From an uncultured Clostridia bacterium (GTDB lineage: Bacteria; Bacillota; Clostridia; TANB77; CAG-508): DNA of 48,582 nt. Position numbers and translations under genes: made by a program. The notes under the pieces are model-generated. The model was not told where the DNA came from. It did no database searches and saw nothing but the letters and a program-made list of their open reading frames with translations. Every line of letters starts with the position of its first letter. Within the stretch, counting starts at the first letter, position 1. Of this stretch, positions 2,534 through 48,435 are shown piece after piece. The stretch spans positions 1 through 48,582 of the forward strand of contig CAKOWP010000003.1 of assembly GCA_934122385.1 (NCBI GenBank). The letters are read 5' to 3'.

Positions 2534-2891
2534 GCATTATTGAGAGTTAGTTATTGTTTAGGATTATGTTCTTTTGATTGGAGTGAAAGATAGAAAATCT
2601 TAAATAAAAAATGAGGGATGTTCACAAAAAAATGTATATGTTTTGATAATTTTATGATTTTATTACGCAACATAAGAATTTCTAAAATATATTTATGGCA
2701 CCCTTCCACTTTGTGAACTCTTTCCATAAATCTTTTTAAGAAATTCTAATATTGCTTAAATACATTTTAAAATTATCAAAACATATACATTTTTTTCTGA
2801 GTGAAAGAGGCTCATATTTTTATTCTAGATTTTCTTTTTGAACGCAATGAATAGAATATAATCCTAAACAATAGCTAACTCTCAATAATGC
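2534..2891 (+). repeat. Long foldback element, copy A (diverged, no clear termini)
   Basis: 358-bp imperfect palindrome. The outer arm GCATTATTGAGAGTTAGTTATTGTTTAGGATTAT (2534-2567) pairs with 2858-2891 at 33/34. The interior shares blocks with copies B, C and D (GAAAATCTTAAATAAAAAA, ACGCAACATAAGAATTTCTAAAAT, TTTCCATAAAT, AAGAAATTCTAATATTGCT). Orientation is defined relative to copy B. Confidence 0.8.
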
Positions 2892-12255: not shown

Positions 12256-13596
12256 GTGCCTACATATATGTACAAGGCTGTAACTAGTTCTGGACTAGTT
12301 ATAAGAAATAGGGTAGAAGCTGGAAGCAAACAAAATTTACTTAGAACATTAAAAGAAAATGATTTAATGCCAATAACTATAGAACAAGTTGCATATTCAG
12401 CTAAAAAGAAAAAAACTAAAAAGAAAAACATAAAAGACATAGAAGAAATAATGAAAAATGTAAATACAACTCAAATAAATACAAAAAAACAATCAACATT
12501 AAAAGAAAAAATAAATATGTATTTATCAAAAACAGAAAAAGTTACAAGCAGGGATTTAGTTATATTTACACAAAACTTCTATTTATTAAAAAAAGCAAAC
12601 TTTAACAATATACATGCTCTAAATACTATAATAGGAAGTACAGAAAACGTTACATTTAAAGGTGTATTGGAAGATATTTTGGCTGGTGTTGAAGCAGGTG
12701 AAAATATGTATACAACAATGGAATATTATTCAGATATATTTCCATTTATATACATAAATATGATAAAAGTAGGAGAATTATCAGGTTCTCTTACAAATTC
12801 GCTTGAACAAGCTGTTACTTACTTAGATTCTACAGAAGTATTGAACAAAAAAATAAGAGGAATACTTATTCCAAACATTGCTCAATTTGTATTGCTAATG
12901 GTTATGCTAGTTGTAGGAACACTAGTAGCAATACCAGCAATTCAAAATGTTTATACAGAAATGGGTTCAACAGATACGTTACCAGCTGTAACATTATGGT
13001 TTCAAAAGTTTTTGAATGGTGTAATAAAATTTTGGTATATACCAGTATCGATTATAGTGGCAGCAGTTGCTGGAATAATATTTTATATAAATACACCTAA
13101 AGGTAAATATAATTTTGATTATTTTAAATACAAAATGCCAGTATTTGGACAATTAATATTCTCATTAGATTTTTCAAGATTAATGAAAGCTATGCTTTTA
13201 AACTTAGAGAATGGAATGAGAATTCAAGAGGCAATTGAAGTAAGTAAAAATGTTGTACAAAACTATGTAATGCTTTCAATTATAGAAACATCTATAAATA
13301 ACATATTAATAGGTGATTCTTGGATAGAGCCATTTGAAAAATCAGGACTTGCAAAATCAATGATAACTGAAATGCTTAAAATTGGTATGCAAACAGACTT
13401 GAATGAAATGATTGCAAAATTAGTAGAATATATGGATATGGATATAGATAATATAATGCAGAAAATTGTAAAGGTTCTTCCTGAGGTAACTTACTTAATT
13501 GTTGGTGTGGTTCTAATATTCTTCGTATTAGTTGTACTTGCACCTTGTATCCAAGTTTATATGGGTGGTTTCTTATTCTCTGCAGCTGGAGTATAA
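12256..13596 (+). CDS. pilC: Type IV pilus platform protein PilC (GspF family)
   Basis: Two GspF-type repeats and 3 TM helices. N-terminus (V)PTYMYKAVTSSG resembles the PilC consensus. GTG 12256 lies 8 nt after AGGAGG; the track start is 12247. Confidence 0.85.
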   Translation: MPTYMYKAVTSSGLVIRNRVEAGSKQNLLRTLKENDLMPITIEQVAYSAKKKKTKKKNIKDIEEIMKNVNTTQINTKKQSTLKEKINMYLSKTEKVTSRDLVIFTQNFYLLKKANFNNIHALNTIIGSTENVTFKGVLEDILAGVEAGENMYTTMEYYSDIFPFIYINMIKVGELSGSLTNSLEQAVTYLDSTEVLNKKIRGILIPNIAQFVLLMVMLVVGTLVAIPAIQNVYTEMGSTDTLPAVTLWFQKFLNGVIKFWYIPVSIIVAAVAGIIFYINTPKGKYNFDYFKYKMPVFGQLIFSLDFSRLMKAMLLNLENGMRIQEAIEVSKNVVQNYVMLSIIETSINNILIGDSWIEPFEKSGLAKSMITEMLKIGMQTDLNEMIAKLVEYMDMDIDNIMQKIVKVLPEVTYLIVGVVLIFFVLVVLAPCIQVYMGGFLFSAAGV

Positions 13597-13641
13597 ATGT
13601 CTCATTGAATGTCCCATTAGGGACGGTTCTGTTTGAGACAT
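13597..13641 (+). repeat. Short GGGAC hairpin repeat, copy r1
   Basis: ATGTCTCATTGAATGTCCCATTAGGGACGGTTCTGTTTGAGACAT begins on the base after the pilC stop. The stem ATGTCTCA/TGAGACAT encloses GTCCC-ATTA-GGGAC. It shares the 22-nt block GGGACGGTTCTGTTTGAGACAT with r2 (28778) and r3 (38987, inverted). Confidence 0.8.
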
Positions 13642-13654
13642 TTGACTACCCAAA

Positions 13655-13846
13655 GTTCCTAAAAGATATAAATTTTTATATTTTTTAGTTCAATACACAA
13701 CATAAGAATTTCTAAAATAAATTGATGAATCTTTTTCACTTAGTCCTCACTTCGTTCGACGTGAACGTTTTTCATAAATTTATTTAAGAAATACTAATAT
13801 TGTTTCAATCACATAAAAAATGTAAAAATTTATATCTTTTAGGGAC
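13655..13846 (+). repeat. Foldback element, copy D (core module in different outer arms)
   Basis: 26-bp outer stem GTTCCTAAAAGATATAAATTTTTATA / TGTAAAAATTTATATCTTTTAGGGAC (two T.G pairs). It encloses CAATACACAACATAAGAATTTCTAAAATAAATTGATGAA...CACTTAGTCCTCACTTCGTTCGACGTGAACG...CATAAATTTATTTAAGAAATACTAATATTGTTTCAATCAC, homologous to the cores of B and C. Confidence 0.8.
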
Positions 13847-13893
13847 TATAGTGAAATGTATAACATTCTAATAGATTATTAAGAAGGTGTAAA

Positions 13894-14837: not shown

Positions 14838-15764
14838 ATGGACGAAAATGTAAAAAAAGCAACTAGACAGAGCTATGGGGAGGCGTTACTAGAATTAGGA
14901 AAAGAAAATAAAAATGTAGTTGTATTTGATGCAGATTTATCAACAGCAACAAAAACAAATTTATTTGCTAAAGAATTTCCAGACAGATTTTTTGATATGG
15001 GAATTGCTGAACAAAATATGATTTCAACAGCAGCAGGAATGGCAACTTGTGGGAAGATTGCATATGCAAGTACATTTGCTGTATTCGCAGCAGGAAGAGC
15101 ATATGACCAAATTCGAAATAGTGTATGTTATCCAAAATTAAATGTTAAAATATGTGCAACTCATGCAGGTATAACTGTTGGAGAAGATGGTGCAACACAT
15201 CAGATGTTAGAAGACATTTCTATGATGAGAACTTTACCTAATATGACTGTTATATCAACATCAGATGATATAGAAACAAAATGGGCTGTTAAAGAAATTA
15301 GTAAAATAAATGGACCTGTATATTTACGCTTATCAAGACTTGCGACTCCTGTAATTTATAATGAAAACCAAAAATTTGAAATTGGAAAGGCGATTCAAAT
15401 TGGTGATGGTACAGATGCTACAATTTTTGCAACAGGAGTAACTGTTAGTGAAGCTATAAAAGCACAAGAACAGTTAAAAGAAAATGGCATAGATGTGAGA
15501 GTTGTTGATATTCATACAATAAAGCCAATTGATAGAGATATTATTATTAAATGTGCTAAAGAAACTAAAAAATTAATTTCCATTGAAGACCATAATGTTA
15601 TTGGTGGACTTGGTTCTGCAATTTCAGAAGTTTTGACTGATGAGTGCCCAACAAAGTTAATAAGATTAGGTATTAATGATACTTTTGGTAAGTCAGGAAA
15701 TGCTGTTGAATTGATGGAATATTTTGGGATTATTGCTGAAAGAATAATAGAAAATGTAAAATAA
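14838..15764 (+). CDS. Transketolase, C-terminal subunit (pyrimidine-binding plus C-terminal domains)
   Basis: 308 aa with ATRQSYGEALLELG, FDMGIAEQNMISTAAGMA and HAGITVGEDGATHQ, typical of split transketolase subunit B. No N-terminal (TPP-binding) subunit gene is adjacent. Confidence 0.85.
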   Translation: MDENVKKATRQSYGEALLELGKENKNVVVFDADLSTATKTNLFAKEFPDRFFDMGIAEQNMISTAAGMATCGKIAYASTFAVFAAGRAYDQIRNSVCYPKLNVKICATHAGITVGEDGATHQMLEDISMMRTLPNMTVISTSDDIETKWAVKEISKINGPVYLRLSRLATPVIYNENQKFEIGKAIQIGDGTDATIFATGVTVSEAIKAQEQLKENGIDVRVVDIHTIKPIDRDIIIKCAKETKKLISIEDHNVIGGLGSAISEVLTDECPTKLIRLGINDTFGKSGNAVELMEYFGIIAERIIENVK

Positions 15765-15770
15765 TTTAGA

Positions 15771-15806
15771 TAGTACTTACTTGTAAAAGTGAGTACTGTT
15801 TTTGTA
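15771..15806 (+). terminator. Intrinsic terminator after the transketolase subunit gene
   Basis: Stem AGTACTTAC/GTGAGTACT (one T.G pair) followed by GTTTTTGT. Confidence 0.5.
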
Positions 15807-15809
15807 TGC

Positions 15810-16248
15810 AAGTTGCCACCCTAAGGGTTATTTATATTTGATATTGTACCTATTTGATTGAAGTGAAAAATAGAAAATCTTAAATAAAAAACTGAGGAAT
15901 GCTCACAAAAGAAATGTATATATGTATATGATTTGAAACATTTTCTCGGTTCAATACGCAACATAAGAATTTCTAAAATAAATTGATGGATAATTCCACT
16001 TAGTCCTCGCTTCGCTCGACGTGAACGCTTTCCATAAATTTATTCAAGAAATTCTAATATTGCTCCAATCACATTCGAAAAGTTTAAAATCATATACATA
16101 TATACATTTCTGCCCTAAGTGAGAGAGGCTCAGTTTTGTATTTTAGATTTTCTTTTTAAATGTAATGAACAGGGTACAATATCAAATATATATAACCCTT
16201 AAGATGGCAACTTTTACATAAAAATTTTTTAAGTCTGTGAATTGTAAC
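15810..16248 (+). mobile_element. Long foldback element, copy B (MITE-like, left terminus missing)
   Basis: Arms AAGTTGCCACCCTAAGGGTTATTTATATTTGATATTGTACC (15810-) and GGTACAATATCAAATATATATAACCCTTAAGATGGCAACTT (-16213). The right end continues to ...CTGTGAATTGTAAC (16248), matching the copy C terminus. The interior is near-identical to the reverse complement of copy C (3 differences in a 135-nt stretch I compared). Confidence 0.85.
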
Positions 16249-27863: not shown

Positions 27864-28778
27864 ATGCAAGGGTTAATAATAGAAAATATATCAAATTTAT
27901 ACAAAATAAAAACAGAAAAAGGAACATATGAAGCAAATGCACGAGGAAAATTCAAAAAAGAAGAAATAACACCAGTAGTTGGAGACAAAGTAGAAATACA
28001 AATATTAGACGAAGAGAACAAAAAAGCTGTAATAGAAGAAATACAAGAAAGAACAACTTATATAAAAAGACCCAAAATGAGCAATATAACTCAACTTATA
28101 CTGGTGGTATCAAGTAAAAATCCTAAACCAGATTTATTACTATTAGATAAGCAATTAGTATTTGCGGAATTTTTAGGAATAAAACCAATAATAGTTTTAA
28201 ATAAAACAGACCTTGATAAAAAGAAAGAGTTTGAAAAAATAAAAGAAGTATATCAAAATATAGGCTATACAGTTATAGAAACGATAGCCAAAGACTTAGA
28301 AGAAATACCGGAAAAAAATGAAATGCATTCAGTAGGTATTCATAATTTAGAAAAAAATTTACAAGGAAATATAAATGCGTTTTCAGGAAATTCAGGAGTT
28401 GGAAAATCGACATTAATAAATGCAATTTTTAAAGATACAATAACACAAGAAGGAGAAATTAGCCAAAGAAACAAAAAAGGTAAAAACACAACAACTTCAA
28501 CAAAATTGTATGAAATAGACGAAAATACATATATTGCCGATACTCCAGGATTTTCAACATTTGATATATCTGAAATAGAATATAGAGAATTGGACAAATA
28601 TTTTAAAGAATTTAAGCCATTATTAGAAAATTGTGAGTTTGTTGGATGTACTCATATAAAAGAAGAAAATTGTGGAATAAAACAAGCTTTGCAACAGGGA
28701 AAAATAGATAGTGGTAGATATGAAAGATTTTGTAAAATTTATGAAGAATTAAAAGAAAAAGATAAGTACAAGTATTAA
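27864..28778 (+). CDS. rsgA: Ribosome small-subunit-dependent GTPase A
   Basis: N-terminal OB-fold region, circularly permuted GTPase motifs (VLNKTDL before GNSGVGKSTLIN, DTPGF), and C-terminal zinc motif CEFVGCTHIKEENC. Confidence 0.9.
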   Translation: MQGLIIENISNLYKIKTEKGTYEANARGKFKKEEITPVVGDKVEIQILDEENKKAVIEEIQERTTYIKRPKMSNITQLILVVSSKNPKPDLLLLDKQLVFAEFLGIKPIIVLNKTDLDKKKEFEKIKEVYQNIGYTVIETIAKDLEEIPEKNEMHSVGIHNLEKNLQGNINAFSGNSGVGKSTLINAIFKDTITQEGEISQRNKKGKNTTTSTKLYEIDENTYIADTPGFSTFDISEIEYRELDKYFKEFKPLLENCEFVGCTHIKEENCGIKQALQQGKIDSGRYERFCKIYEELKEKDKYKY

Positions 28779-28821
28779 TGTCTCATTGGGGACGGTTCTG
28801 TTTGAGACATCGGTTCCAAAA
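28778..28821 (+). repeat. Short GGGAC hairpin repeat, copy r2
   Basis: ATGTCTCATTGGGGACGGTTCTGTTTGAGACATCGGTTCCAAAA. The first A is the last base of the rsgA stop codon. A 33-nt block is identical to inverted copy r3. Confidence 0.8.
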
Positions 28822-28847
28822 ACGACAAATGAAACGGAGGAAATAAA

Positions 28848-30855: not shown

Positions 30856-30960
30856 TACAAAACCTCCTTTAAAAAATTTTTTATATGCTAAAATCATATA
30901 TCTTTAGTAGGTTTTTGTCAATTCTTTTAGAGTAATTTTTTTGACAATTCTTTTATAGTA

Positions 30961-31433
30961 GTTACAATTCATAGCCTTAGAAAATTTTTGAGTGTAAGTT
31001 GCCACCTTAAGGGTTATATATATTTGATATTGTATCCTATTCATTACGTTTAAAAAGAAAATCTAAAATACAAAACTGAGCCTCTCTCACTCAGACAAGA
31101 ATGTATATATGTATATGATTTTAAACTTTTCGAGTGTAATTGAAGCAATATTAGAATTTCTTAAATAAATTTATGGAAAGCGTTCACGTCGAGCGAAGCG
31201 AGGACTAAGTGGAATAAGCCATCAATTTATTTTAGAAATTCTTATGTTGCGTATTGAACCGAGAAAATGTTTCAAATCATATACATATATACATTTCTTT
31301 TGTGAGTATTCCTCAGTTATTTATTTAAGATTTTCTATTTTTCACTTCAATCAAACGGATACAATATCAAATATATATAACCCTTAAGGTGGCGACTTAC
31401 ACACAAAAACTTCCTAAGGCTGTGAATTGCAAC
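30961..31433 (-). mobile_element. Long foldback element, copy C (complete, MITE-like, with 8-bp target-site duplication)
   Basis: 473 bp. Termini are GTTACAATTCATAGCC... and ...GGCTGTGAATTGCAAC. The terminal 77 nt of the two arms are complementary at 71/77. Flanked by TTATAGTA at 30953-30960 and 31434-31441. Inverted relative to copy B. No ORF. Confidence 0.85.
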
Positions 31434-31532
31434 TTATAGTAAATTTTTTTGACAATATTTCAAAATTATGTTAATATAATAAGTGTATACAAAATTTTAG
31501 TAAATACAAAATTTTAAAGGATGTTGATTTAA

Positions 31533-31802
31533 ATGGATGAAAAAAAATGTATAGAATATTATTTTGATTCTAAACAATATAATAAAAAAGAAATATTGGA
31601 AAATATTGAAAAAGAAAAAAGTGAATTTCCAAAGCAAAAATTTGATGTAAATATTACATTAAATAAATATGGAATATATATTGTTAGATTAGAATGTAAA
31701 AATAATAAAATCGCTGTAGTAAAGCGTAATAGAAAAATTAAACAAAATAAAGTAACTGTATATGGAAAATATAAAGAAACAAAAACATATGCACCAATAT
31801 AA
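31533..31802 (+). CDS. Hypothetical small protein (89 aa)
   Basis: ORF with a plausible RBS (AAAGGATG) and a candidate promoter TTGACA-17-TAATAT at 31449-31477. No recognisable motif. Confidence 0.4.
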   Translation: MDEKKCIEYYFDSKQYNKKEILENIEKEKSEFPKQKFDVNITLNKYGIYIVRLECKNNKIAVVKRNRKIKQNKVTVYGKYKETKTYAPI

Positions 31803-31880
31803 AGCGCGAAATTTGTCGAACGATTTTTCTTGATTTTGTAAAAGAACTATGTTAATATGTATTTAACTGGTTCTTTTTTT

Positions 31881-31918
31881 TATATATTAGGAAAGTTATG
31901 CAACTTTCCTAATATATA
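31881..31918. repeat. Perfect 17-bp hairpin TATATATTAGGAAAGTT-ATGC-AACTTTCCTAATATATA
   Basis: Perfect inverted repeat with a 4-nt loop. The apex AAGTTATGCAACTT recurs as AAGTTATGTAACTT at 39494-39507. Confidence 0.7.
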
Positions 31919-35203: not shown

Positions 35204-35343
35204 TGTATGGATAAATCGTTTTTTCTAAATAATATTTTTTCATAGACATTTTGTATCATTATAAAGTTTATTCAATAAATTTTAGAAAGGATTTAGAAAA
35301 TTATAAATATTCTTAAATTATTCTGGGAAAGGAGGAAAACAAT

Positions 35344-35862
35344 ATGGATAACAAAGAACTTTTAGAAATATTGGACCAAAGATTCAATAAAATTGATGAA
35401 AAATTTGACAAGATAGATGAAAAATTTGACAAGATAGATGAAAAATTTGACAAGATAGATGAAAGACTTGACAAAATGGATGAAAGACTTGATAAAATGG
35501 ATGAAAGATTTGACAAGATGGATGAAAGACTTGATAAGATGGATGGACAATTTGGTGAAATTGATCAAAAATTCAAAGAATTCAATGACAAAATGGATAA
35601 AGGATTTAAAGAAGTAAATGACAGAATGGATAAAGGATTCAGAGAAATCAATGACAAAGTTGATAAAGGATTTGAAGATATCAATAATAGATTAGATGTA
35701 TTAACAAATTCTAATTTAGCACAAATTCTTAATGCCCAAACCCGAAACACAAAAGAAATAACTGATAAACTAGACAGATACATAGTTAAAAATGAAAGAG
35801 ACCATAAAAAATTTGAATATGAAATTGCTGATACAAAAATGAAATTAAAATTTGCAAGATAG
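35344..35862 (+). CDS. Tandem-repeat coiled-coil protein of unknown function
   Basis: Strong RBS GGAAAGGAGGA. Ten heptads of type D(E/Q)(K/R)(F/L)DK(I/M), then three 11-residue units ND(K/R)(M/V)DKGF(K/R/E)(E/D)(V/I), then a non-repetitive ~60-aa C-terminus. No TM helix or signal peptide. Confidence 0.6.
   Translation: MDNKELLEILDQRFNKIDEKFDKIDEKFDKIDEKFDKIDERLDKMDERLDKMDERFDKMDERLDKMDGQFGEIDQKFKEFNDKMDKGFKEVNDRMDKGFREINDKVDKGFEDINNRLDVLTNSNLAQILNAQTRNTKEITDKLDRYIVKNERDHKKFEYEIADTKMKLKFAR
35374..35682 (+). repeat. Coding tandem repeats: 10 x 21 bp followed by 3 x 33 bp
   Basis: Three identical copies of GATGAAAAATTTGACAAGATA (35395-35457). GATGAAAGACTTGA(C/T)AA(A/G)ATG variants run to 35541. 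33-bp units of the AATGACAAAATGGATAAAGGATTTAAAGAAGTA type run from 35584 to 35682. Confidence 0.85.
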
Positions 35863-38986: not shown

Positions 38987-39048
38987 AATGTCTCTTTTGG
39001 AACCGATGTCTCAAACAGAACCGTCCCGAAAGAGACATTCTTTTTTTT
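38987..39048 (-). repeat. Short GGGAC hairpin repeat, copy r3 (inverted), doubling as the ytfJ terminator
   Basis: The plus strand reads AATGTCTCTTT-TGGAACCGATGTCTCAAACAGAACCGTCCCG-AAAGAGACATT followed by CT8. The reverse complement shares 33 identical nt with r2. Confidence 0.8.
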
Positions 39049-39477: not shown

Positions 39478-39489
39478 TTTTTATATATT

Positions 39490-39511
39490 ATAAAAGTTAT
39501 GTAACTTTTAT
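39490..39511. repeat. 9-bp hairpin in the spoIIAA-spoIIAB spacer
   Basis: ATAAAAGTT-ATGT-AACTTTTAT. The apex is related to the hairpin at 31881-31918. Confidence 0.55.
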
Positions 39512-39543
39512 GACATAAATACATTGAAAGGAAAATATAGATT

Positions 39544-42027: not shown

Positions 42028-42861
42028 ATGAGAAGAAATATTAGAAAAAATAACAAAGATGAAATGAGTATGAGAATAATAAAGTATTCTACAATAGCTG
42101 TTGCAATACTTACAGTAATAGTATTTGTAGTATTAATTTACAGTAAAAAATTAAATGACACTGTAAAAGAAGGAACTTTAACAGGAGAACAATTATCAAG
42201 TATATTAAATAACACATCAAATCAAACAGAAAATACAGAAAGCGCAAGTTCAGAAATTGGAAAAAGTGTAAATGAGATGGCTAATGAATTAAATGCAAAT
42301 AATGCAGTAACAAATAGTTCAAATTCAAATGCAAATGCAACTACTAATAAAAGTACAAAATCAAATAATGTTTTATCAACAAATCAAATAAATAGTAACA
42401 AAATGACTGAATCAAATAGTAAAACAGAAGAAAAGGCTGAAACTAAAAATGTTGAACTAAATTTTGCAAAACCTGTTGAGGGAGATATTGTAAGAGATTT
42501 TGCTGTTGATAGTTTGGTATATTCAGATACTTTACAAGAATGGACAACACATACAGGAATTGATATAAAAGCAGATAAAACAACAGTTGTAAAATCAGCA
42601 GAAGCGGGAATTGTTAAAACTATAAAAAATGACCCCAGATATGGTTTAACAGTAATTGTAGAACATGAGAATGGATTTCAAACAGTATATTCAAATTTGT
42701 TGACATCAGAATTTGTTGTTGAAGGAGAAAAAGTAGAAAAGGGTCAATCACTTGGAACAGTTGGAAATACAGCAGCTTTTGAAATTGCAGATGAACCACA
42801 TCTTCATTTTGAAGTTTTAAAAGATTCAGTTCAAGTTGATCCAAATATATATTTAAAATAG
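42028..42861 (+). CDS. spoIIQ: Membrane-anchored M23 peptidase, SpoIIQ-like
   Basis: N-terminal TM helix, Asn/Ser-rich linker, and an LytM domain with intact HTGIDIKA and EPHLHFEV. Adjacent to spoIID as in some Clostridia. The symbol is inferred from context. Confidence 0.5.
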   Translation: MRRNIRKNNKDEMSMRIIKYSTIAVAILTVIVFVVLIYSKKLNDTVKEGTLTGEQLSSILNNTSNQTENTESASSEIGKSVNEMANELNANNAVTNSSNSNANATTNKSTKSNNVLSTNQINSNKMTESNSKTEEKAETKNVELNFAKPVEGDIVRDFAVDSLVYSDTLQEWTTHTGIDIKADKTTVVKSAEAGIVKTIKNDPRYGLTVIVEHENGFQTVYSNLLTSEFVVEGEKVEKGQSLGTVGNTAAFEIADEPHLHFEVLKDSVQVDPNIYLK

Positions 42862-43092
42862 TTACAGTTCAGTAGGAAAATACCTGAAATACCTGTGAAT
42901 GATATTTTTCATATTTTCTCAGCTTCCCGACATACGTTAACAAATTCTAATGTAAATACTCTAACAATACCCGAAGGCAGGAACCTTTAGAGCATTTACT
43001 TAAGAATTTGTAATACTATTTTGGTCACATTCGAAATATATTCAAAATATCATTCACAGGTATTTCAGGGATTTTTCCTACTGAACTGTAAC
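42861..43092 (+). mobile_element. Short foldback element, copy E (MITE-like)
   Basis: 232 bp. Termini are GTTACAGTTCAGTAGGAAAA... and ...TTTTTCCTACTGAACTGTAAC. Flanked by TTAAAATA (42853-42860) and TTAAAAAA (43093-43100). The first base is the G of the upstream TAG stop codon. Close homolog of copy F (few differences by eye). Confidence 0.85.
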
Positions 43093-43096
43093 TTAA

Positions 43097-43133
43097 AAAA
43101 GTACCTATTATAAAAATAATAGGTACTTTTCTT
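43097..43133 (+). terminator. Intrinsic terminator, displaced from the SpoIIQ-like gene by element E
   Basis: Perfect 12-bp core stem AGTACCTATTAT/ATAATAGGTACT (the full stem AAAAGTACCTATTAT/ATAATAGGTACTTTT spans 43097-43111 and 43116-43130) with a 4-nt loop AAAA, followed by TTTTCTTGATTTTTT. Confidence 0.7.
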
Positions 43134-43160
43134 GATTTTTTCTCTTTTTTGAAGTATAAT
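43132..43160 (+). promoter_or_regulatory. Candidate sigma-A promoter of the AlaRS-like gene
   Basis: TTGATT (43132-43137), a 17-nt spacer, then TATAAT (43155-43160). The ~75-nt leader is too short for a T-box. Confidence 0.45.
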
Positions 43161-43236: not shown

Positions 43237-45000
43237 ATGAAGGCAATAGAGATAAGAAATAAATATCTAAACTTTTTTAAAGAACATGGACACGCTGTAA
43301 TACCATCAGCATCATTAATACCAGAAAATGACCCATCAGTACTATTCACAACAGCAGGAATGCAACCATTAGTACCATATTTATTAGGGGAAAAACATCC
43401 ATCAGGAACAAGACTTACAGACTACCAAAAATGTCTAAGAACAAATGACATAGAAGAGGTAGGAGACAACAGACACTTAACATATTTCGAAATGTTAGGA
43501 AACTGGTCATTAGGAGACTATTTCAAAGAAGAATCAATTCAAATGAGTTTTGATTTCTTAACAAAAGAATTACAAATTCCAGTAGAAAAATTATCTGTAA
43601 CAGTATTTGCAGGGGATGACGATTGCCCAAGGGACGAATTAGCAGCAGAATGCTGGAAAAAAGCAGGAATTTTAGATGGACATATTTATTATTATGGAAA
43701 AGACGACAACTGGTGGATAGCAGGAGAAGAAGGCCCATGTGGACCAGATACAGAAATGTTCTATGACACAGGAAAACCAGCATGTGGACCAGACTGTCAA
43801 CCTTCATGTGACTGTGGTAAATATGTTGAAATATGGAACAATGTATTTATGGAATATTTCAAAAGCAAAGATGGAAAATATTCAAAATTAGCTCAAAGAA
43901 ATGTTGATACAGGACTTGGACTAGAAAGAATGACAATGTTATTACAAGGAAAAGAAACACCATTTGATACAGAATTATTCAAACCAGTAATGGACAAACT
44001 ATCAGAATTACAAAAAGTTGATAACATAGAAAGTAGAAGAATCATAGCAGAACACTTACGTTCAAGTATGATGGTAATTAGTGATGGTGGAAGACCAAGC
44101 AATGTTGATAGAGGATATATTTTAAGAAGATTAATTCGTAGAATGGTAAGGCATATGAATAAACTACAAATAAATCTTGATGAAATATCAACATTAATAG
44201 ATATCAATGTTGAAAACTTAAAAGAAATGTATCCAGACTTAGTAAAAAATCAAGAATTGATAAAAAATGTAATAATTGAAGAAAAAAATAAATTTGTAAA
44301 AACACTTGCACATGGTGAAAAAGAATTTGAAAAAGAAATGAATAAAGCTAAAGAACAAGGCAAAACTAAAATAGATGGAAAAGTAGTATTTAAATTATAT
44401 GATACATATGGATTCCCACCAGAAGTTACAAGTGAATTAGCAAAAGAAAACAATATGACTGTTGATATGAAAGAATTTGATGAACTATTTAAAGCACATC
44501 AAGAAAAATCAAGAATGGGTTCAGAACAAAAATTTAAAGGTGGACTAGCAGAACAAAATGACACAACAATCGCATATCATACTGCAACACATTTATTAAA
44601 TGCAGCACTTAAAGTAGTTTTAGGACCAGAAACACATCAAAGAGGTTCAAACATTACAGTAGACAGAATGAGATTTGACTTCAACTGTGACCACAAAATG
44701 ACAGACGAAGAAAAGAAACAAACAGAAGATTTAGTAAATAAATGGATTCAAGATGCAATACCAGTAACAGTAGAAGAAATGAAAAAAGAGGAAGCGGTTA
44801 AATCAGGAGCAGAATGTATGTTTATTGAAAAATATCCTGAAGTTGTAACTGTTTATACAATAGGAGATGTTTCAAAAGAACTATGTGGTGGACCTCATGT
44901 AAAAAATACAAGTGAACTTGGAAAATTTAAAATCAAAAAAGAAGAAGCAAGTTCAGCCGGAGTTAGAAGAATAAAAGCAATTTTGGAAAAAGGGATTTAG
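43237..45000 (+). CDS. alaS: Alanine--tRNA ligase-like protein, short form (587 aa; no beta-barrel subdomain, no C-Ala domain)
   Basis: Class IIc catalytic blocks FTTAGMQP, FEMLGNWSLGDYFK, GPCGPDTEMFYD, VEIWNNVFMEY and DTGLGLERM. tRNA-recognition block PSNVDRGYILRRLIRR. Editing-core HTATH...CGGPH. Ends right after GVRRIKAIL. Confidence 0.75.
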   Translation: MKAIEIRNKYLNFFKEHGHAVIPSASLIPENDPSVLFTTAGMQPLVPYLLGEKHPSGTRLTDYQKCLRTNDIEEVGDNRHLTYFEMLGNWSLGDYFKEESIQMSFDFLTKELQIPVEKLSVTVFAGDDDCPRDELAAECWKKAGILDGHIYYYGKDDNWWIAGEEGPCGPDTEMFYDTGKPACGPDCQPSCDCGKYVEIWNNVFMEYFKSKDGKYSKLAQRNVDTGLGLERMTMLLQGKETPFDTELFKPVMDKLSELQKVDNIESRRIIAEHLRSSMMVISDGGRPSNVDRGYILRRLIRRMVRHMNKLQINLDEISTLIDINVENLKEMYPDLVKNQELIKNVIIEEKNKFVKTLAHGEKEFEKEMNKAKEQGKTKIDGKVVFKLYDTYGFPPEVTSELAKENNMTVDMKEFDELFKAHQEKSRMGSEQKFKGGLAEQNDTTIAYHTATHLLNAALKVVLGPETHQRGSNITVDRMRFDFNCDHKMTDEEKKQTEDLVNKWIQDAIPVTVEEMKKEEAVKSGAECMFIEKYPEVVTVYTIGDVSKELCGGPHVKNTSELGKFKIKKEEASSAGVRRIKAILEKGI

Positions 45001-45130
45001 GGACGTTCCTGAAAATCCCTTTTTCAAGGGAATGGGGGACACTCCTTTAGATTGTAAAATGTTTTGAATTTTAAAAGGAATGTCCCTTTATCCCGATTTG
45101 AAGGGAATTTAAGGAACGTCCCTAAATCCC
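44992..45130. repeat. GGGAC-type 139-bp palindrome, element H
   Basis: Terminal inverted repeat GGGATTTAGGGACGTTCCT(G) / (A)AGGAACGTCCCTAAATCCC at 19/20. The inner pair GGGGACACTCCTTT / AAAGGAATGTCCCT has one mismatch. Four GGGAC/GTCCC motifs. The left arm encodes the last codons and stop of the AlaRS-like ORF. Confidence 0.8.
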
Positions 45131-45699: not shown

Positions 45700-46374
45700 A
45701 TGTTTGAGAGTAAATATAGTAAAGTATTAACAGTAGTGTTAGTAATAGTAATTATAGCAATAGTTGCACTATTAGGATTTTTATCTTATGATTTTATAAA
45801 AAAATATAATACATCAAAACAAGCATCAGACTTTGTAGAAGAATATCAAGGAAATCTTACAACAAGTGACCAAGGAAATGATACAGTTCAAGAGAATGTT
45901 ACATTAGATGATGCAAATGAAGCACCAATAACAAGTACTAGCACAAGTGGAAATTCAGGAAAGAAAAAATATGAAGGATTTACAGTAGTTGGTACTATGA
46001 AAATTCCTGCAATAAATTTGGAATACCCAATTGTTCAAGAAGTATCAACAAAAGCTTTAGAGAAAGCTTTAATAGCATTGTATCCAAGTGGTGATAATTT
46101 AAATTTACCTGGTAATACAGTTGTTATCGGTCATAATTATAGAAATGGAATGTTTTTCTCTAATTTGAAAAAACTAACTAATGGAGCAAAAATATATGTA
46201 ACTGATTTTAGAGGTAAATCATTAACATATGAAGTTTATAATAAATTTGAGGCTTCTTCAACAGATACATCTTTCTATACTAGAGATACAAACGGGTTAG
46301 CCGAATTAACATTATCAACTTGTACAGATGCAAGTAATGATCAAAGAACAATAATTTTTGCTAAACAAATTTAA
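45700..46374 (+). CDS. Sortase-family transpeptidase
   Basis: N-terminal TM anchor, VIGHNYRNG (catalytic His), LTLSTCTD (TLxTC Cys) and QRTIIFA (Arg). No LPXTG substrate recognised in the window. Confidence 0.75.
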   Translation: MFESKYSKVLTVVLVIVIIAIVALLGFLSYDFIKKYNTSKQASDFVEEYQGNLTTSDQGNDTVQENVTLDDANEAPITSTSTSGNSGKKKYEGFTVVGTMKIPAINLEYPIVQEVSTKALEKALIALYPSGDNLNLPGNTVVIGHNYRNGMFFSNLKKLTNGAKIYVTDFRGKSLTYEVYNKFEASSTDTSFYTRDTNGLAELTLSTCTDASNDQRTIIFAKQI

Positions 46375-46390
46375 TTATATATATAAAAGG

Positions 46391-46418
46391 GCTTACAAGA
46401 AATTGTAGGCTTTTTTCT
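46391..46418 (+). terminator. Intrinsic terminator of the sortase gene
   Basis: Stem GCTTACAA/TTGTAGGC (one T.G pair) followed by TTTTTTCT. That T-tract is the target duplicated by element F. Confidence 0.6.
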
Positions 46419-46652
46419 GTTACAGTTCAGTAAGGAAAATTCCTGAAATACCTGCGAATGATATTTTTCATATTTTCTCAGGTTCCCTACATGATGTTAA
46501 CAAATTCTAATGTAAATACTCTAACAATACCCGAAGGCAGGACCCTTTAGAGCATTTACTTAAGAATTTGTAACATTATTTTGGTCACATTCGAAATATA
46601 TTCAAAATATCATTCGCAGGTATTTCAGGGATTTTCCTTACTGAACTGTAAC
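46419..46652 (+). mobile_element. Short foldback element, copy F (MITE-like, perfect 8-bp target-site duplication)
   Basis: 234 bp. Termini are GTTACAGTTCAGTAAGGAAAA... and ...TTTTCCTTACTGAACTGTAAC. Flanked by TTTTTTCT at 46411-46418 and 46653-46660. Confidence 0.9.
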
Positions 46653-46748
46653 TTTTTTCTTTATAAAATTTGCAGAATTTAAAAAAAATACTTTAAAAAA
46701 ACAAGAAAATGTTATACAATATACGAAAAGTAAAAAAAGGAGAAAGGT

Positions 46749-48435
46749 ATGAACAAAAAATGGCAAATATATGAGGCAGATACAAAAGAAACAAACAGAA
46801 TAGCAGAGAAATATAAAATAAATAAACTGCTAGCATCAATAATTGTAAATAGAAAAATAAAAGATGAAAATATAGAAATATTTTTACATCCAACAAGACA
46901 AAATTTTCATGATCCATTTTTAATGCCAGATATGAATATTGCGGTAGAGAGAATAATAAAAGCAATAGAAAATAACGAAAAAACAATAATATATGGAGAT
47001 TATGATGTAGATGGAATAACAAGTATAACAGTATTAAAAAGCTTTTTAGAAGATAGAGGATTACATGTAGATTCATATATTCCAAACAGATTAGAAGAAG
47101 GATATGGCTTAAACAAACCAGCCATAGAAAAAATAGCACAAGAAAATTACACTTTAATGATAACAGTTGACACAGGAATTTCTGGAATAGAAGAAATCGA
47201 ATATGCAAATTCTTTAGGAATTGAAACGATAGTAACAGACCATCACGAAGTAGGAGATGAATTGCCAAAAGCACTTGCCGTAGTTGATGCAAAAAGAAAA
47301 GACAATCAATATCCTTGCAGAGATTTGGCGGGAGTTGGTGTTGTATTTAAATTAATACAAGCATTGCGGAAAAAAATTAGAATTAGACGAAAAAGAATAC
47401 TTAAAATACTTAGACATTGTGTGTGTTGGAACAATATCAGATATAGTTCCATTAGTTGATGAAAATAGAGTTATAACAAAATTAGGATTATTACTTGTAG
47501 CGCAAACAAAAAATATGGGCCTAAGGTCATTACTAATGTCTTCAGGGTATAAAAATTTGGACTCAACAACTATATCTTTTGGCGTTGCACCAAGAATAAA
47601 TGCATGTGGAAGAATGGGACATGCAGATGAGGCATTGAAACTATTTTTATCAAAAGATATTTACGAAGTAAATGAACTCACAAAGAAATTAAATGATTAT
47701 AATAAAATGAGACAAGAAAAAGAAAAATCAATTTATGAAGATGCAGTAAATCAAATTGAAAAGAACAAGTTATATGAAAATTGTGCAATAGTTGTTGGTG
47801 GAGATAATTGGCATCATGGAGTTATTGGAATTGTATCTTCAAAAATAACAGATTTGTATTTTAAACCAAGTATTTTATTGTGTTATGACAACGAATTAGC
47901 AAAAGGCTCAGGTAGAAGCATTCCAGGTTTTGACTTGCATGATGCATTAATGAAATGCCAAGATACAATTGAAAAATTTGGTGGACACAGTATGGCAATA
48001 GGAATTACAATTAAAAAGGACAATTTTGATAAGTTTGCAAAAGAACTTGAACATATTGCAAAAGATTCAAAAATAGATGAAATTATTCCTATCATAAATG
48101 TTGACGCAAAAATCAATTTAAACGAAGTAAGTAGAGAAACTGTTGAAAGTTTGAAACAACTAGAACCATTTGGTGAAGGAAATAAGACACCAATATTTGC
48201 ATTGAAAAATTTGAAAGTTGATTCTATTAGAAGTTTGTCAGAAGGTAAACATATAAAAATGACTTTAAAAGATGGTAATTCTGTTGTAAATGCAATAGGT
48301 TTTAATTTAGGTTATTTAGCAGATGAATATAGAATTGGTGACAAGATTGATGTTGTTGGAACTTTGGAAATTAATAGTTTTAATGGGGTTGATAGTTTAC
48401 AAATTAATATTAAAGATGTTATGAAGTCAATATAA
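46749..48435 (+). pseudogene. recJ: Single-stranded-DNA exonuclease RecJ, interrupted by a 1-nt frameshift in an A7 run
   Basis: ORF 46749-47459 carries DHH motifs (IIYGDYDVDGITS, TVDTG, IVTDHH, LAGVGVVFKLIQAL). ORF 47419-48435, one base out of frame (+1 relative to the first), continues with VGTISDIVPLVDENR ... GGHSMAIG (DHHA1). The frames join if one A is removed from A7 at 47370-47376, giving ...QALRKKLELDEKEYLKYLDIVCVGTISD.... Confidence 0.8.

What the first reader, a model, noticed from the sequence alone, without database searches (positions are those of the whole stretch)
46411..46660. Copy F: foldback element with a perfect TTTTTTCT duplication, inserted into the U-tract of the sortase terminator
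Seen directly: ...GCTTACAAGAAATTGTAGGC TTTTTTCT | GTTACAGTTCAG ... CTGAACTGTAAC | TTTTTTCT TTATAAAA.
The target was the T-tract of an intrinsic terminator. The duplication leaves the terminator intact upstream of the element.
F and E share orientation, termini and nearly all sequence. Together with copy C there are three independent insertions with 8-bp duplications and GTTACARTTCA ends, all in AT-rich targets next to terminators or promoters.
This supports a single transposition mechanism with a preference for T/A-rich intergenic sites.
Basis: partly seen in the sequence, partly recalled or inferred. Interest (0 to 1): 0.7.

Follow-up and report, generated by a model that had tools for sequence, protein, structure and literature searches.

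The report
Small foldback transposon after sortase terminator
The 234-bp palindromic insert behind the sortase gene is a real non-coding miniature transposon (MITE) from an undescribed family in uncultured gut Clostridia; that is ordinary in kind, but related strains carry three different members of the family at this same 8-bp site.

Summary
Window 46419-46652 is a 234-bp near-perfect foldback with 58-nt terminal inverted repeats. It is flanked by a perfect TTTTTTCT duplication (46411-18 and 46653-60), and the left copy is the T-tract of the sortase terminator.

It is a MITE:
- It has no ORF above 33 aa and no Rfam match.
- It is 94% identical to copy E (42861-43092).
- It shares GTTACARTTYA tips with the 473-bp copy C (30961-31433).
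- At 22 distinct two-ended sites in nine gut Clostridia MAGs, about 17 have perfect 8-bp duplications of differing sequence. Chance gives 5e-4 per site.
- A sister lineage carries the unoccupied, single-copy target.

Targets are AT-richer than non-coding background (13% vs 25% GC). Closeness to hairpins is no greater than for random intergenic positions.

No autonomous partner or transposase was found, so the transposase family is inferred only (8-bp staggered cut).

Unexpected findings:
- The same TTTTTTCT site holds the 234-bp type, a 363-bp type, a 161-bp type, deletion derivatives or a 23-bp remnant in closely related strains.
- Copy E is inverted in place in one strain.
- The arms show paired (concerted) substitutions.

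Verdict: a new member of a known kind, of moderate interest.

The parts
46385..46418 (+). Intrinsic-terminator-like hairpin of the sortase gene (AAAAGGGCTTACAA-GAAA-TTGTAGGCTTTT) plus its T-tract. The last 8 nt are the left target-site duplication.
   Evidence: RNA fold -14.6 kcal/mol, z = -4.6. The sister lineage keeps the hairpin, with a G-C to A-T compensatory pair (GAACTTACAAGAAATTGTAGGTTC). The simple consensus scan did not flag it because it has fewer than 3 G-C pairs outside G-T.
46411..46418 (.). Left copy of the 8-bp target-site duplication, TTTTTTCT
46419..46652 (+). Copy F: 234-bp non-coding foldback MITE (F-type subfamily). Terminal inverted repeats at 46419-46476 and 46595-46652; GC-rich apical region around 46520-46550.
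   Evidence: It is 93-97% identical to copies at 10+ other sites in other MAGs.
46653..46660 (.). Right copy of the 8-bp target-site duplication, TTTTTTCT
46692..46720 (+). Promoter-like site upstream of recJ (TTTAAA-17-TACAAT), downstream of the insertion and untouched by it
   Evidence: consensus match only
42861..43092 (+). Copy E: F-type MITE, 232 bp, with flanks TTAAAATA/TTAAAAAA. Its first G completes the TAG stop codon of the M23 peptidase gene. It lies just 5' of that gene's terminator hairpin.
30961..31433 (+). Copy C: large-type MITE, 473 bp, with a perfect TTATAGTA duplication (30953-60 and 31434-41), between divergent genes
15798..16248 (-). Large-type copy, 95% identical to C over 311 nt. 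It has one intact tip (GTTACAATTCAC at 16237-16248, minus strand) and the other tip is missing.

Best explanation
Copy F is a miniature inverted-repeat transposable element (MITE): a 234-bp non-coding foldback.

Inferred mechanism: a transposase supplied in trans recognised the roughly 11-25-bp terminal sequences (GTTACARTTYA...). It made cuts staggered by 8 bp in the target, and gap repair duplicated TTTTTTCT.

Shown history of the site: the target was the T-tract of the sortase terminator. The insertion happened after the split from the lineage whose sortase is 78-84% identical, and before the split of the 92%-identical lineage, which keeps a 23-bp F-type remnant. It has been inherited vertically since.

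Position and effect: the left duplicate preserves hairpin plus UUUUUUCU, and the recJ promoter lies downstream of the element. The element therefore sits in a transcriptionally quiet gap and is probably near-neutral.

Family: it has at least three subfamilies that share little more than their tips (the 234-bp F-type and a 161-bp type share only 19-nt termini; a 363-473-bp large type shares about 11 nt plus a loosely similar ~25 nt and a short 72-83% internal stretch with F). Many internal-deletion derivatives of 16-141 bp still carry 8-bp duplications.

Transposase identity: inferred only. Bacterial families known to give 8-bp duplications include IS256, IS6/IS26, ISL3, IS1595 and IS66 (own knowledge). 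Published IS256-family behaviour (8-bp, A/T-rich targets; PMC7780238) fits best, but this was not demonstrated.
For: - TSDs: about 17 of 22 distinct two-ended sites have perfect 8-bp duplications, each of different sequence, and the rest match 6-7/8. The chance rate is 5.4e-4 per site.
- Conserved tips: present across size classes from 16 bp to 473 bp.
- Minimal unit: a 75-bp copy consisting only of the two arms has a perfect TGAAAATT duplication (L064).
- No coding capacity and no Rfam family.
- Unoccupied orthologous target: a single copy of the 8-mer region in the sister lineage, GTAGGTTCTTTTGTTTAT against the predicted GTAGGCTTTTTTCTTTAT.
- Distribution: multi-copy in nine gut Clostridia MAG assemblies.
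- Targets are AT-rich.
Against: - No autonomous element with these ends, and no transposase gene next to any copy, was found in 559 kb of fetched loci, in GTDB representative genomes, in IMG/VR or in PLSDB. These were exact-pattern scans, so a diverged parent would be missed, and repeats often fall outside MAG bins.
- The exact empty site within the F-bearing lineage was not found.
- The 'empty' alleles of site C also lack a 27-bp unit, so they are not clean empty sites.
- The IS256 subterminal TGTAAA motif is absent from F-type arms.
Confidence: 0.85

Rival explanations
1. Repeated occupancy of one site means the elements are exchanged in place rather than only inserted. One ancestral insertion fixed the tips and the duplication. 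Later the whole body was swapped for other family members, either by transposase-mediated end-to-end recombination (as in IS26 targeted-conservative reactions or P-element replacement) or by gene conversion primed on the shared tips. This complements the MITE reading rather than excluding it.
For: - The same TTTTTTCT site carries several alleles in strains whose flanks differ by <1-4%: the F-type (234 bp), the large type (363 bp, in three independent assemblies L015, L019, L055), an 89-bp derivative of the large type (L087, L090), a 161-bp third type (L091-L099) and a 23-bp F-type remnant (L100-L104).
- F-type is ancestral by flank phylogeny.
- A second orthologous site, ATTTTATC, carries an F-type copy in L003 and a 39-bp large-type mini in L030.
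- No empty allele was seen in any F-lineage contig.
- Paired substitutions in both arms (4 pairs) and an in-place inversion of E in L016 show that recombination acts inside these elements.
Against: - Homology between subfamilies is only 6-19 nt at each tip, too short for ordinary RecA recombination.
- Precise excision of a foldback by slippage between its duplications, followed by re-insertion at a hot spot, gives the same picture.
- Inter-strain recombination is rife (incongruent left and right flank distances).
- No donor locus was identified.
Confidence: 0.3
2. The element is kept because its hairpin works as a structured RNA or DNA signal (an extra terminator or insulator, a small RNA, or a protein-binding cruciform). 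On this reading the compensatory substitutions reflect selection on the structure.
For: - Four base pairs have double, pair-preserving changes among very similar copies.
- Foldback energy is extreme.
- The element followed by its T-rich duplicate would resemble a giant terminator.
- About half of the sites abut terminator-like hairpins.
Against: - No Rfam match.
- One-sided changes give G.U-type pairs about as often as A.C-type mismatches (about 8 vs 5 pairs), so no transcribed strand is favoured.
- E is tolerated in both orientations.
- Internal deletions down to 16-89 bp, and three unrelated bodies, are tolerated at the same place.
- Hairpin proximity equals background.
- Arm-to-arm conversion explains the paired changes, and the inverted copy is the one with two of them.
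Confidence: 0.07
3. It is a REP/REPIN-like or IS200/IS605-type palindromic element (moved by a HUH/RAYT enzyme), or a cassette of a site-specific recombinase (integron attC-like: GTTACAG...CTGTAAC).
For: It is palindromic, intergenic, multi-copy and often next to terminators. The tips loosely recall the integron core GTTRRRY. One site is occupied repeatedly.
Against: - HUH-mobilised elements make no target duplications and have no terminal inverted repeats at the cut sites. Here 8-bp duplications of variable sequence flank nearly every copy.
- GTTACAG does not fit GTTRRRY (sequence).
- The 20 listed sites share no core sequence.
- A tyrosine recombinase near a GTTACAGTTCAGTAAC motif in L003 and L030 turned out to sit beside a 16-bp remnant with its own 7/8 duplication.
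Confidence: 0.03

Closest known systems
Bacterial MITEs in general (e.g. Correia/nemis of Neisseria, RUP of Streptococcus pneumoniae, ERIC/IRU, MITEAba12 of Acinetobacter; PMC6382973 listed; the others from own knowledge)
   Same: Small size (<500 bp), non-coding, terminal inverted repeats, target-site duplication, multi-copy, intergenic, often beside terminators or promoters, size variants produced by internal deletion.
   Different: - The duplication is 8 bp (Correia, RUP and ERIC give TA; MITEAba12 gives 9 bp).
- The whole body is a foldback rather than only short end repeats.
- No sequence similarity to anything in Rfam, PLSDB or IMG/VR.
- No parent IS was identified.
- Several subfamilies share only 11-19-nt tips.
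IS256 family insertion sequences (e.g. ISCth4 of Clostridium thermocellum; PMC7780238)
   Same: 8-bp duplications, a preference for A/T-rich targets, and presence in Clostridia. Some large-type arms contain TGTAAA/TGTAAG about 30-37 nt from the tip.
   Different: No IS256-like transposase was found in any fetched locus. F-type arms lack the subterminal TGTAAA motif. The tips start GTTACA. The relationship is an untested lead.
IS6/IS26 family (IS257, IS1216; PMC6952201 listed)
   Same: 8-bp duplications, and common in Firmicutes. The family has a 'targeted conservative' mode that reacts with an existing copy of the same ends, which could in principle give same-site exchange.
   Different: The tip similarity (GTTCTGTTGCA vs GTTACAGTTCA) is weak and needs gaps, and it rests on a recalled sequence. 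No transposase was found. IS26-type MITEs are not a known phenomenon.
Eukaryotic foldback elements, hAT/P-type MITEs, and P-element 'replacement' (own knowledge; hAT MITE with 8-bp TSD in PMC3517528, P-like MITE BuT5 in PMC3698922)
   Same: Long inverted arms that make up most of the element, 8-bp duplications, and replacement of one element by another at the identical site with the same duplication.
   Different: A different domain of life, no sequence or tip similarity (hAT tips are YARNG), and the mechanism in bacteria is unknown.

Membership tests
MITE (non-autonomous DDE-type DNA transposon) | Small size (tens to a few hundred bp) and no coding capacity | tested here: met
   234 bp; longest ORF 33 aa
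MITE (non-autonomous DDE-type DNA transposon) | Terminal inverted repeats | tested here: met
   58-nt arms, 93% complementary; tips conserved in all copies
MITE (non-autonomous DDE-type DNA transposon) | Target-site duplications of fixed length and variable sequence | tested here: met
   8 bp; about 17 of 22 sites perfect, the rest 6-7/8; chance rate 5.4e-4
MITE (non-autonomous DDE-type DNA transposon) | Multiple dispersed copies, with insertion polymorphism or an empty orthologous site | tested here: met
   40+ loci in nine MAGs. The sister lineage has a single-copy unoccupied target. The exact empty allele within the same lineage was not found.
MITE (non-autonomous DDE-type DNA transposon) | An autonomous IS with matching ends that supplies the transposase | tested here: inconclusive
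   None found in genome contigs (3 exact-pattern scans), viral contigs, PLSDB or the fetched loci. ISfinder could not be searched. MAGs tend to lose IS copies.
IS256-family derivative | 8-bp (8-9) duplication in A/T-rich targets | tested here: met
   family property from PMC7780238
IS256-family derivative | Subterminal TGTAAA motif in each end | tested here: not met
   Absent from the 58-nt arms of F (sequence). Present only as TGTAAA/TGTAAG/TGCAAG in some large-type arms.
IS256-family derivative | IS256/Mutator-type transposase with the same ends | tested here: inconclusive
   tblastn with a recalled IS256 transposase against all fetched DNA gave no hit. Whole genomes were not available.
REP/REPIN or IS200/IS605 palindrome-associated elements | No target duplication; mobilised by a HUH (RAYT/TnpA) enzyme acting on subterminal hairpins | tested here: not met
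   8-bp duplications flank nearly every copy
Integron attC or other site-specific recombination cassette | Conserved core (GTTRRRY/RYYYAAC) and a common attachment sequence at every site | tested here: not met
   GTTACAG does not fit the core. No shared flanking motif at the 14 sites tabulated per position, and the 20 listed duplications all differ in sequence.
Known structured RNA family | Match to an Rfam covariance model | tested here: not met
   No hit at gathering threshold in the window. Only chance-level miRNA-hairpin hits at E <= 10.

The most novel reading that the evidence does not exclude
Members of this family are exchanged in place. Once a pair of tips and an 8-bp duplication are installed at a site, the whole body can be replaced by a different subfamily, inverted, or homogenised between arms without disturbing the duplication. 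This would imply a bacterial element-for-element replacement reaction at transposon ends, either transposase-mediated or repair templated by microhomology. It would be driven by a transposase that has no recognisable autonomous copy in any of about 185,000 representative genomes.
Probability: 0.25. Interest if true: 0.6.

Novelty: new member of a known kind. Interest (0 to 1): 0.4.

Why it matters
In itself this is one more bacterial MITE family, found in small, AT-rich, uncultured human-gut Clostridia. It is useful for three practical reasons:
- It explains contig breaks and possible mis-joins in these MAGs.
- It gives strain markers.
- It warns annotators that these palindromes are neither terminators nor RNAs.

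The more interesting point is population-level. A single 8-bp site shows an allelic series of three subfamilies, deletion derivatives and a remnant, and there is also an in-place inversion and concerted arm evolution. If this reflects true in-place exchange rather than a hot spot, it would be a simple natural system for studying how transposon ends recombine with each other in bacteria.

Tried and rejected
1. Rfam at gathering and permissive thresholds gave nothing meaningful.
2. PLSDB blastn with F, with C and with the bare arms gave no hits or only chance hits.
3. IMG/VR scans with both tip patterns gave zero hits.
4. Candidate long elements were checked. Tip-like pairs 1.4-3.8 kb apart (L006 5281-7912, L079 4211-5628, L003 3654-5882 and others) enclose housekeeping genes (SASP, HPF, RecO, Era, an ABC transporter) and have no flank duplication, so they are chance pairs or solo ends.
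5. A tyrosine recombinase next to GTTACAGTTCAGTAAC in L003 and L030 looked like a possible mobiliser. The motif is a 16-bp deletion remnant with its own 7/8 duplication.
6. tblastn with a recalled IS256 transposase against all fetched DNA gave nothing.
7. The exact empty-site scan of JGI metagenomes gave zero hits. A left-flank scan showed that the collection mostly holds the sister lineage.
8. The terminator-preference hypothesis was rejected by a random non-coding control.
9. The RNA-selection reading of the compensatory pairs was not favoured, because G.U and A.C one-sided changes are about equal.
10. Literature searches for a described equivalent found none.

Full report
OBSERVATION

The sortase gene (45700-46374; Pfam Sortase) is followed by a hairpin, AAAAGGGCTTACAA-GAAA-TTGTAGGCTTTT. 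This hairpin folds at -14.6 kcal/mol with z = -4.6. Next comes TTTTTTCT (46411-18), then a 234-bp element (46419-46652), then TTTTTTCT again (46653-60).

The element's arms are 58 nt long and 93% complementary. The whole element is close to a perfect foldback: -69.3 kcal/mol as DNA, z = -16.8. It has no ORF longer than 33 aa and matches no Rfam family. The window has 27.5% GC.

COPIES IN THE WINDOW

- Copy E (42861-43092) is 94.4% identical to F and co-oriented. Its flanks are TTAAAATA/TTAAAAAA.
- The 473-bp copy C (30961-31433) shares only the tips and a loosely similar ~25 nt with F. It has a perfect TTATAGTA duplication.
- A further large-type copy lies at 15798-16248 on the minus strand, with one tip lost.
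- The tip 12-mer occurs 6 times in the window, against 0.58 expected.

COPIES ELSEWHERE

Three exact-pattern scans of one-genome-per-species GTDB contigs found the family only in nine uncultured gut Clostridium/Clostridia MAG assemblies. I counted 22 distinct sites where both tips are present. They include full F-type copies (233-235 bp), 244- and 336-bp variants, 75- and 141-bp deletion derivatives, 470-473-bp large-type copies and a 49-bp mini.

About 17 of the 22 have a perfect 8-bp direct repeat, each of different sequence. The others match 6-7 of 8. Random AT-rich positions at the same spacing give 8/8 with P = 5.4e-4, and unrelated palindromes in the window have no flank repeats.

A 75-bp copy made only of the two arms still has a perfect duplication (L064). 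The roughly 25-35-nt ends are therefore sufficient for transposition.

EMPTY SITE

The exact predicted empty site was absent from the JGI metagenome collection. A scan for the left flank and look-ups by flanking proteins showed two things.

First, every contig of the lineage with GGCTTTTTTCT carries an element. Second, the sister lineage (sortase 78-84% identical) carries GTAGGTTCTTTTGTTTAT. That sequence is colinear with the predicted GTAGGCTTTTTTCTTTAT (15/18 identical), has one copy of the 8-mer, and has no element. Its hairpin shows a G-C to A-T compensatory pair, which supports a functional terminator.

For site C, the 'empty' alleles lack the element plus a 27-bp unit bounded by AATTTTTTTGACAAT repeats. 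They are therefore not clean empty sites.

TARGET CHOICE

The 8-mers have 13% GC, against 25% in non-ORF DNA of the same loci (P = 3e-4). There is no positional consensus.

About half of the reconstructed targets touch a terminator-like hairpin. Random non-coding positions fold just as well: mean -8.7 vs -8.2 kcal/mol, p = 0.48. The data support a preference for AT-rich DNA, or survival of insertions there. They do not support a specific attraction to terminators or promoters.

WHAT IT IS

F meets every structural criterion of a MITE. The mechanism is inferred. A transposase acting in trans binds the GTTACARTTYA-type ends, cuts the target with an 8-bp stagger, and repair duplicates the 8-mer.

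The left duplicate keeps the terminator's U-tract, and the recJ promoter-like site (46692-46720) lies beyond the right duplicate. The insertion therefore sits in a quiet gap.

TRANSPOSASE SEARCH

No autonomous partner was found. No element longer than 500 bp with these ends exists in the fetched loci. Tip-like pairs kilobases apart enclose housekeeping genes. PLSDB and IMG/VR gave nothing. A recalled IS256 transposase gave no tblastn hit.

The published properties of the IS256 family (8-bp, A/T-rich duplications; subterminal TGTAAA; PMC7780238) fit only in part. The motif is missing from F-type arms.

UNEXPECTED HISTORY OF THE SITE

Look-ups with sortase variants and HIT show the following alleles at the identical TTTTTTCT site:
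- the F-type (window, L012/13, L016/17/85, L020, L021);
- a 363-bp large-type element (L015/84, L019/88, L055; three independent assemblies);
- an 89-bp internal-deletion derivative of the large type (L087, L090);
- a 161-bp third subfamily that shares only 19-nt tips with F (L091-L099);
- a 23-bp F-type remnant (L100-L104).

Flank distances place the window (3.8% away) and L020 (2% away), both F-type, outside a <1% cluster that contains both F-type and large-type alleles. The 92%-identical lineage keeps an F-type remnant. F-type is therefore ancestral at this site, and the other two bodies are later replacements.

A second orthologous site (ATTTTATC) holds an F-type copy in L003 and a 39-bp large-type mini in L030.

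Two readings remain open. One is precise excision followed by repeated hot-spot insertion. The other is direct in-place exchange through the shared tips. I could not decide between them.

OTHER DYNAMICS

Copy E is inverted in place in one strain (L016), with E-specific central SNPs retained. This rests on one contig.

Among 19 distinct F-type sequences, four stem pairs show double, pair-preserving substitutions. Two of these are in the inverted copy. One-sided changes give G.U-type and A.C-type outcomes about equally often. This points to arm-to-arm conversion at the DNA level rather than selection on an RNA.

VERDICT

The claimed preference for terminators and promoters does not exceed background, and no cognate transposase could be identified.

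In kind this is a new, undescribed MITE family, which is a known class of element. The same-site allelic series is the only feature that a mobile-DNA specialist would find surprising.

Noticed in passing
window 46749-48435 (frameshift at about 47365-47385, GCATTGCGGAAAAAAATTAGAA): recJ is split into two overlapping ORFs (236 + 338 aa) by an A7 run, and a +1 shift (loss of one A) would restore a continuous RecJ. The same split is present in every strain and lineage examined, including the distant sister lineage. It is therefore conserved and not an assembly error. It may reflect transcriptional slippage, programmed frameshifting or a two-piece RecJ.
   Followed up: partly
window 42853-42861: Copy E overlaps the stop codon of the M23 peptidase gene: the TAG is made of TA from the target plus the first G of the element. 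E lies between the stop codon and the gene's terminator hairpin (43100-43135).
   Followed up: partly
L016 767-999 (orthologous to window 42861-43092): Copy E is inverted in place in one strain, with identical flanks and E-specific central SNPs. That copy also carries two compensatory double substitutions in its arms. Seen in a single contig only.
   Followed up: yes
L015/L019/L055/L084/L088 (363 bp), L087/L090 (89 bp), L091-L099 (161 bp), L100-L104 (23-bp remnant); all orthologous to window 46411-46660: Three different subfamilies, a deletion derivative and a remnant occupy the identical TTTTTTCT site in closely related strains.
   Followed up: yes
L055 (metagenome contig OIYY01002830.1): The contig joins the sortase-site large-type element to the reverse-complemented left flank of the transketolase-site element (window ~15764-15800). 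This is either a real ~30-kb inversion between two inverted copies or an assembly chimera through the repeat.
   Followed up: no
window 44992-45130, and L015 2901-3001: A GC-rich palindromic repeat (GGGATTTAGGGACGTTCC...) directly follows alaS. Other strains carry a different GC-rich palindrome at the same place. alaS itself is only 585-587 aa and ends at the tRNA_SAD domain.
   Followed up: no
window 13595-13641, 28777-28827, 38989-39039: There is another short repeat family (AATGTCTCATTGGGGACGGTTCTGTTTGAGACAT...), placed right after gene ends. It looks like a REP-like terminator palindrome unrelated to the MITE.
   Followed up: no
window 2534-2891 and 13654-13847: These foldback repeats share the inner modules of the large-type MITE (e.g. 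...ACAACATAAGAATTTCTAAAATAAATTGATG...GTGAACGC...). They have different outer arms and no GTTACA tips or flank duplications, which suggests modular or nested composition of the large type.
   Followed up: partly
window 30897-31533 compared with L042-L051: The promoter region between the DUF8173 gene and the 89-aa gene contains a 27-bp duplicated unit with TTGACAAT boxes. Alleles without copy C also lack one unit, and L043/L050/L051 carry a 214-bp internal-deletion derivative of C.
   Followed up: partly
L014, L018, L052-L060 (sortase-recJ spacer of the sister lineage); window 31877-31916 and 39478-39517: A small palindrome (ATATACTAGGAAAGTTATRCAACTTTCCTAGTATAT) is variably present in one or two copies in the sister lineage's spacer. 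Related sequences occur twice in the window, so this is another mobile or unstable short repeat.
   Followed up: no
window 35323-35690: There are tandem 21-nt and 33-nt coding repeats (10 and 3 copies) inside ORF 35344-35862.
   Followed up: no
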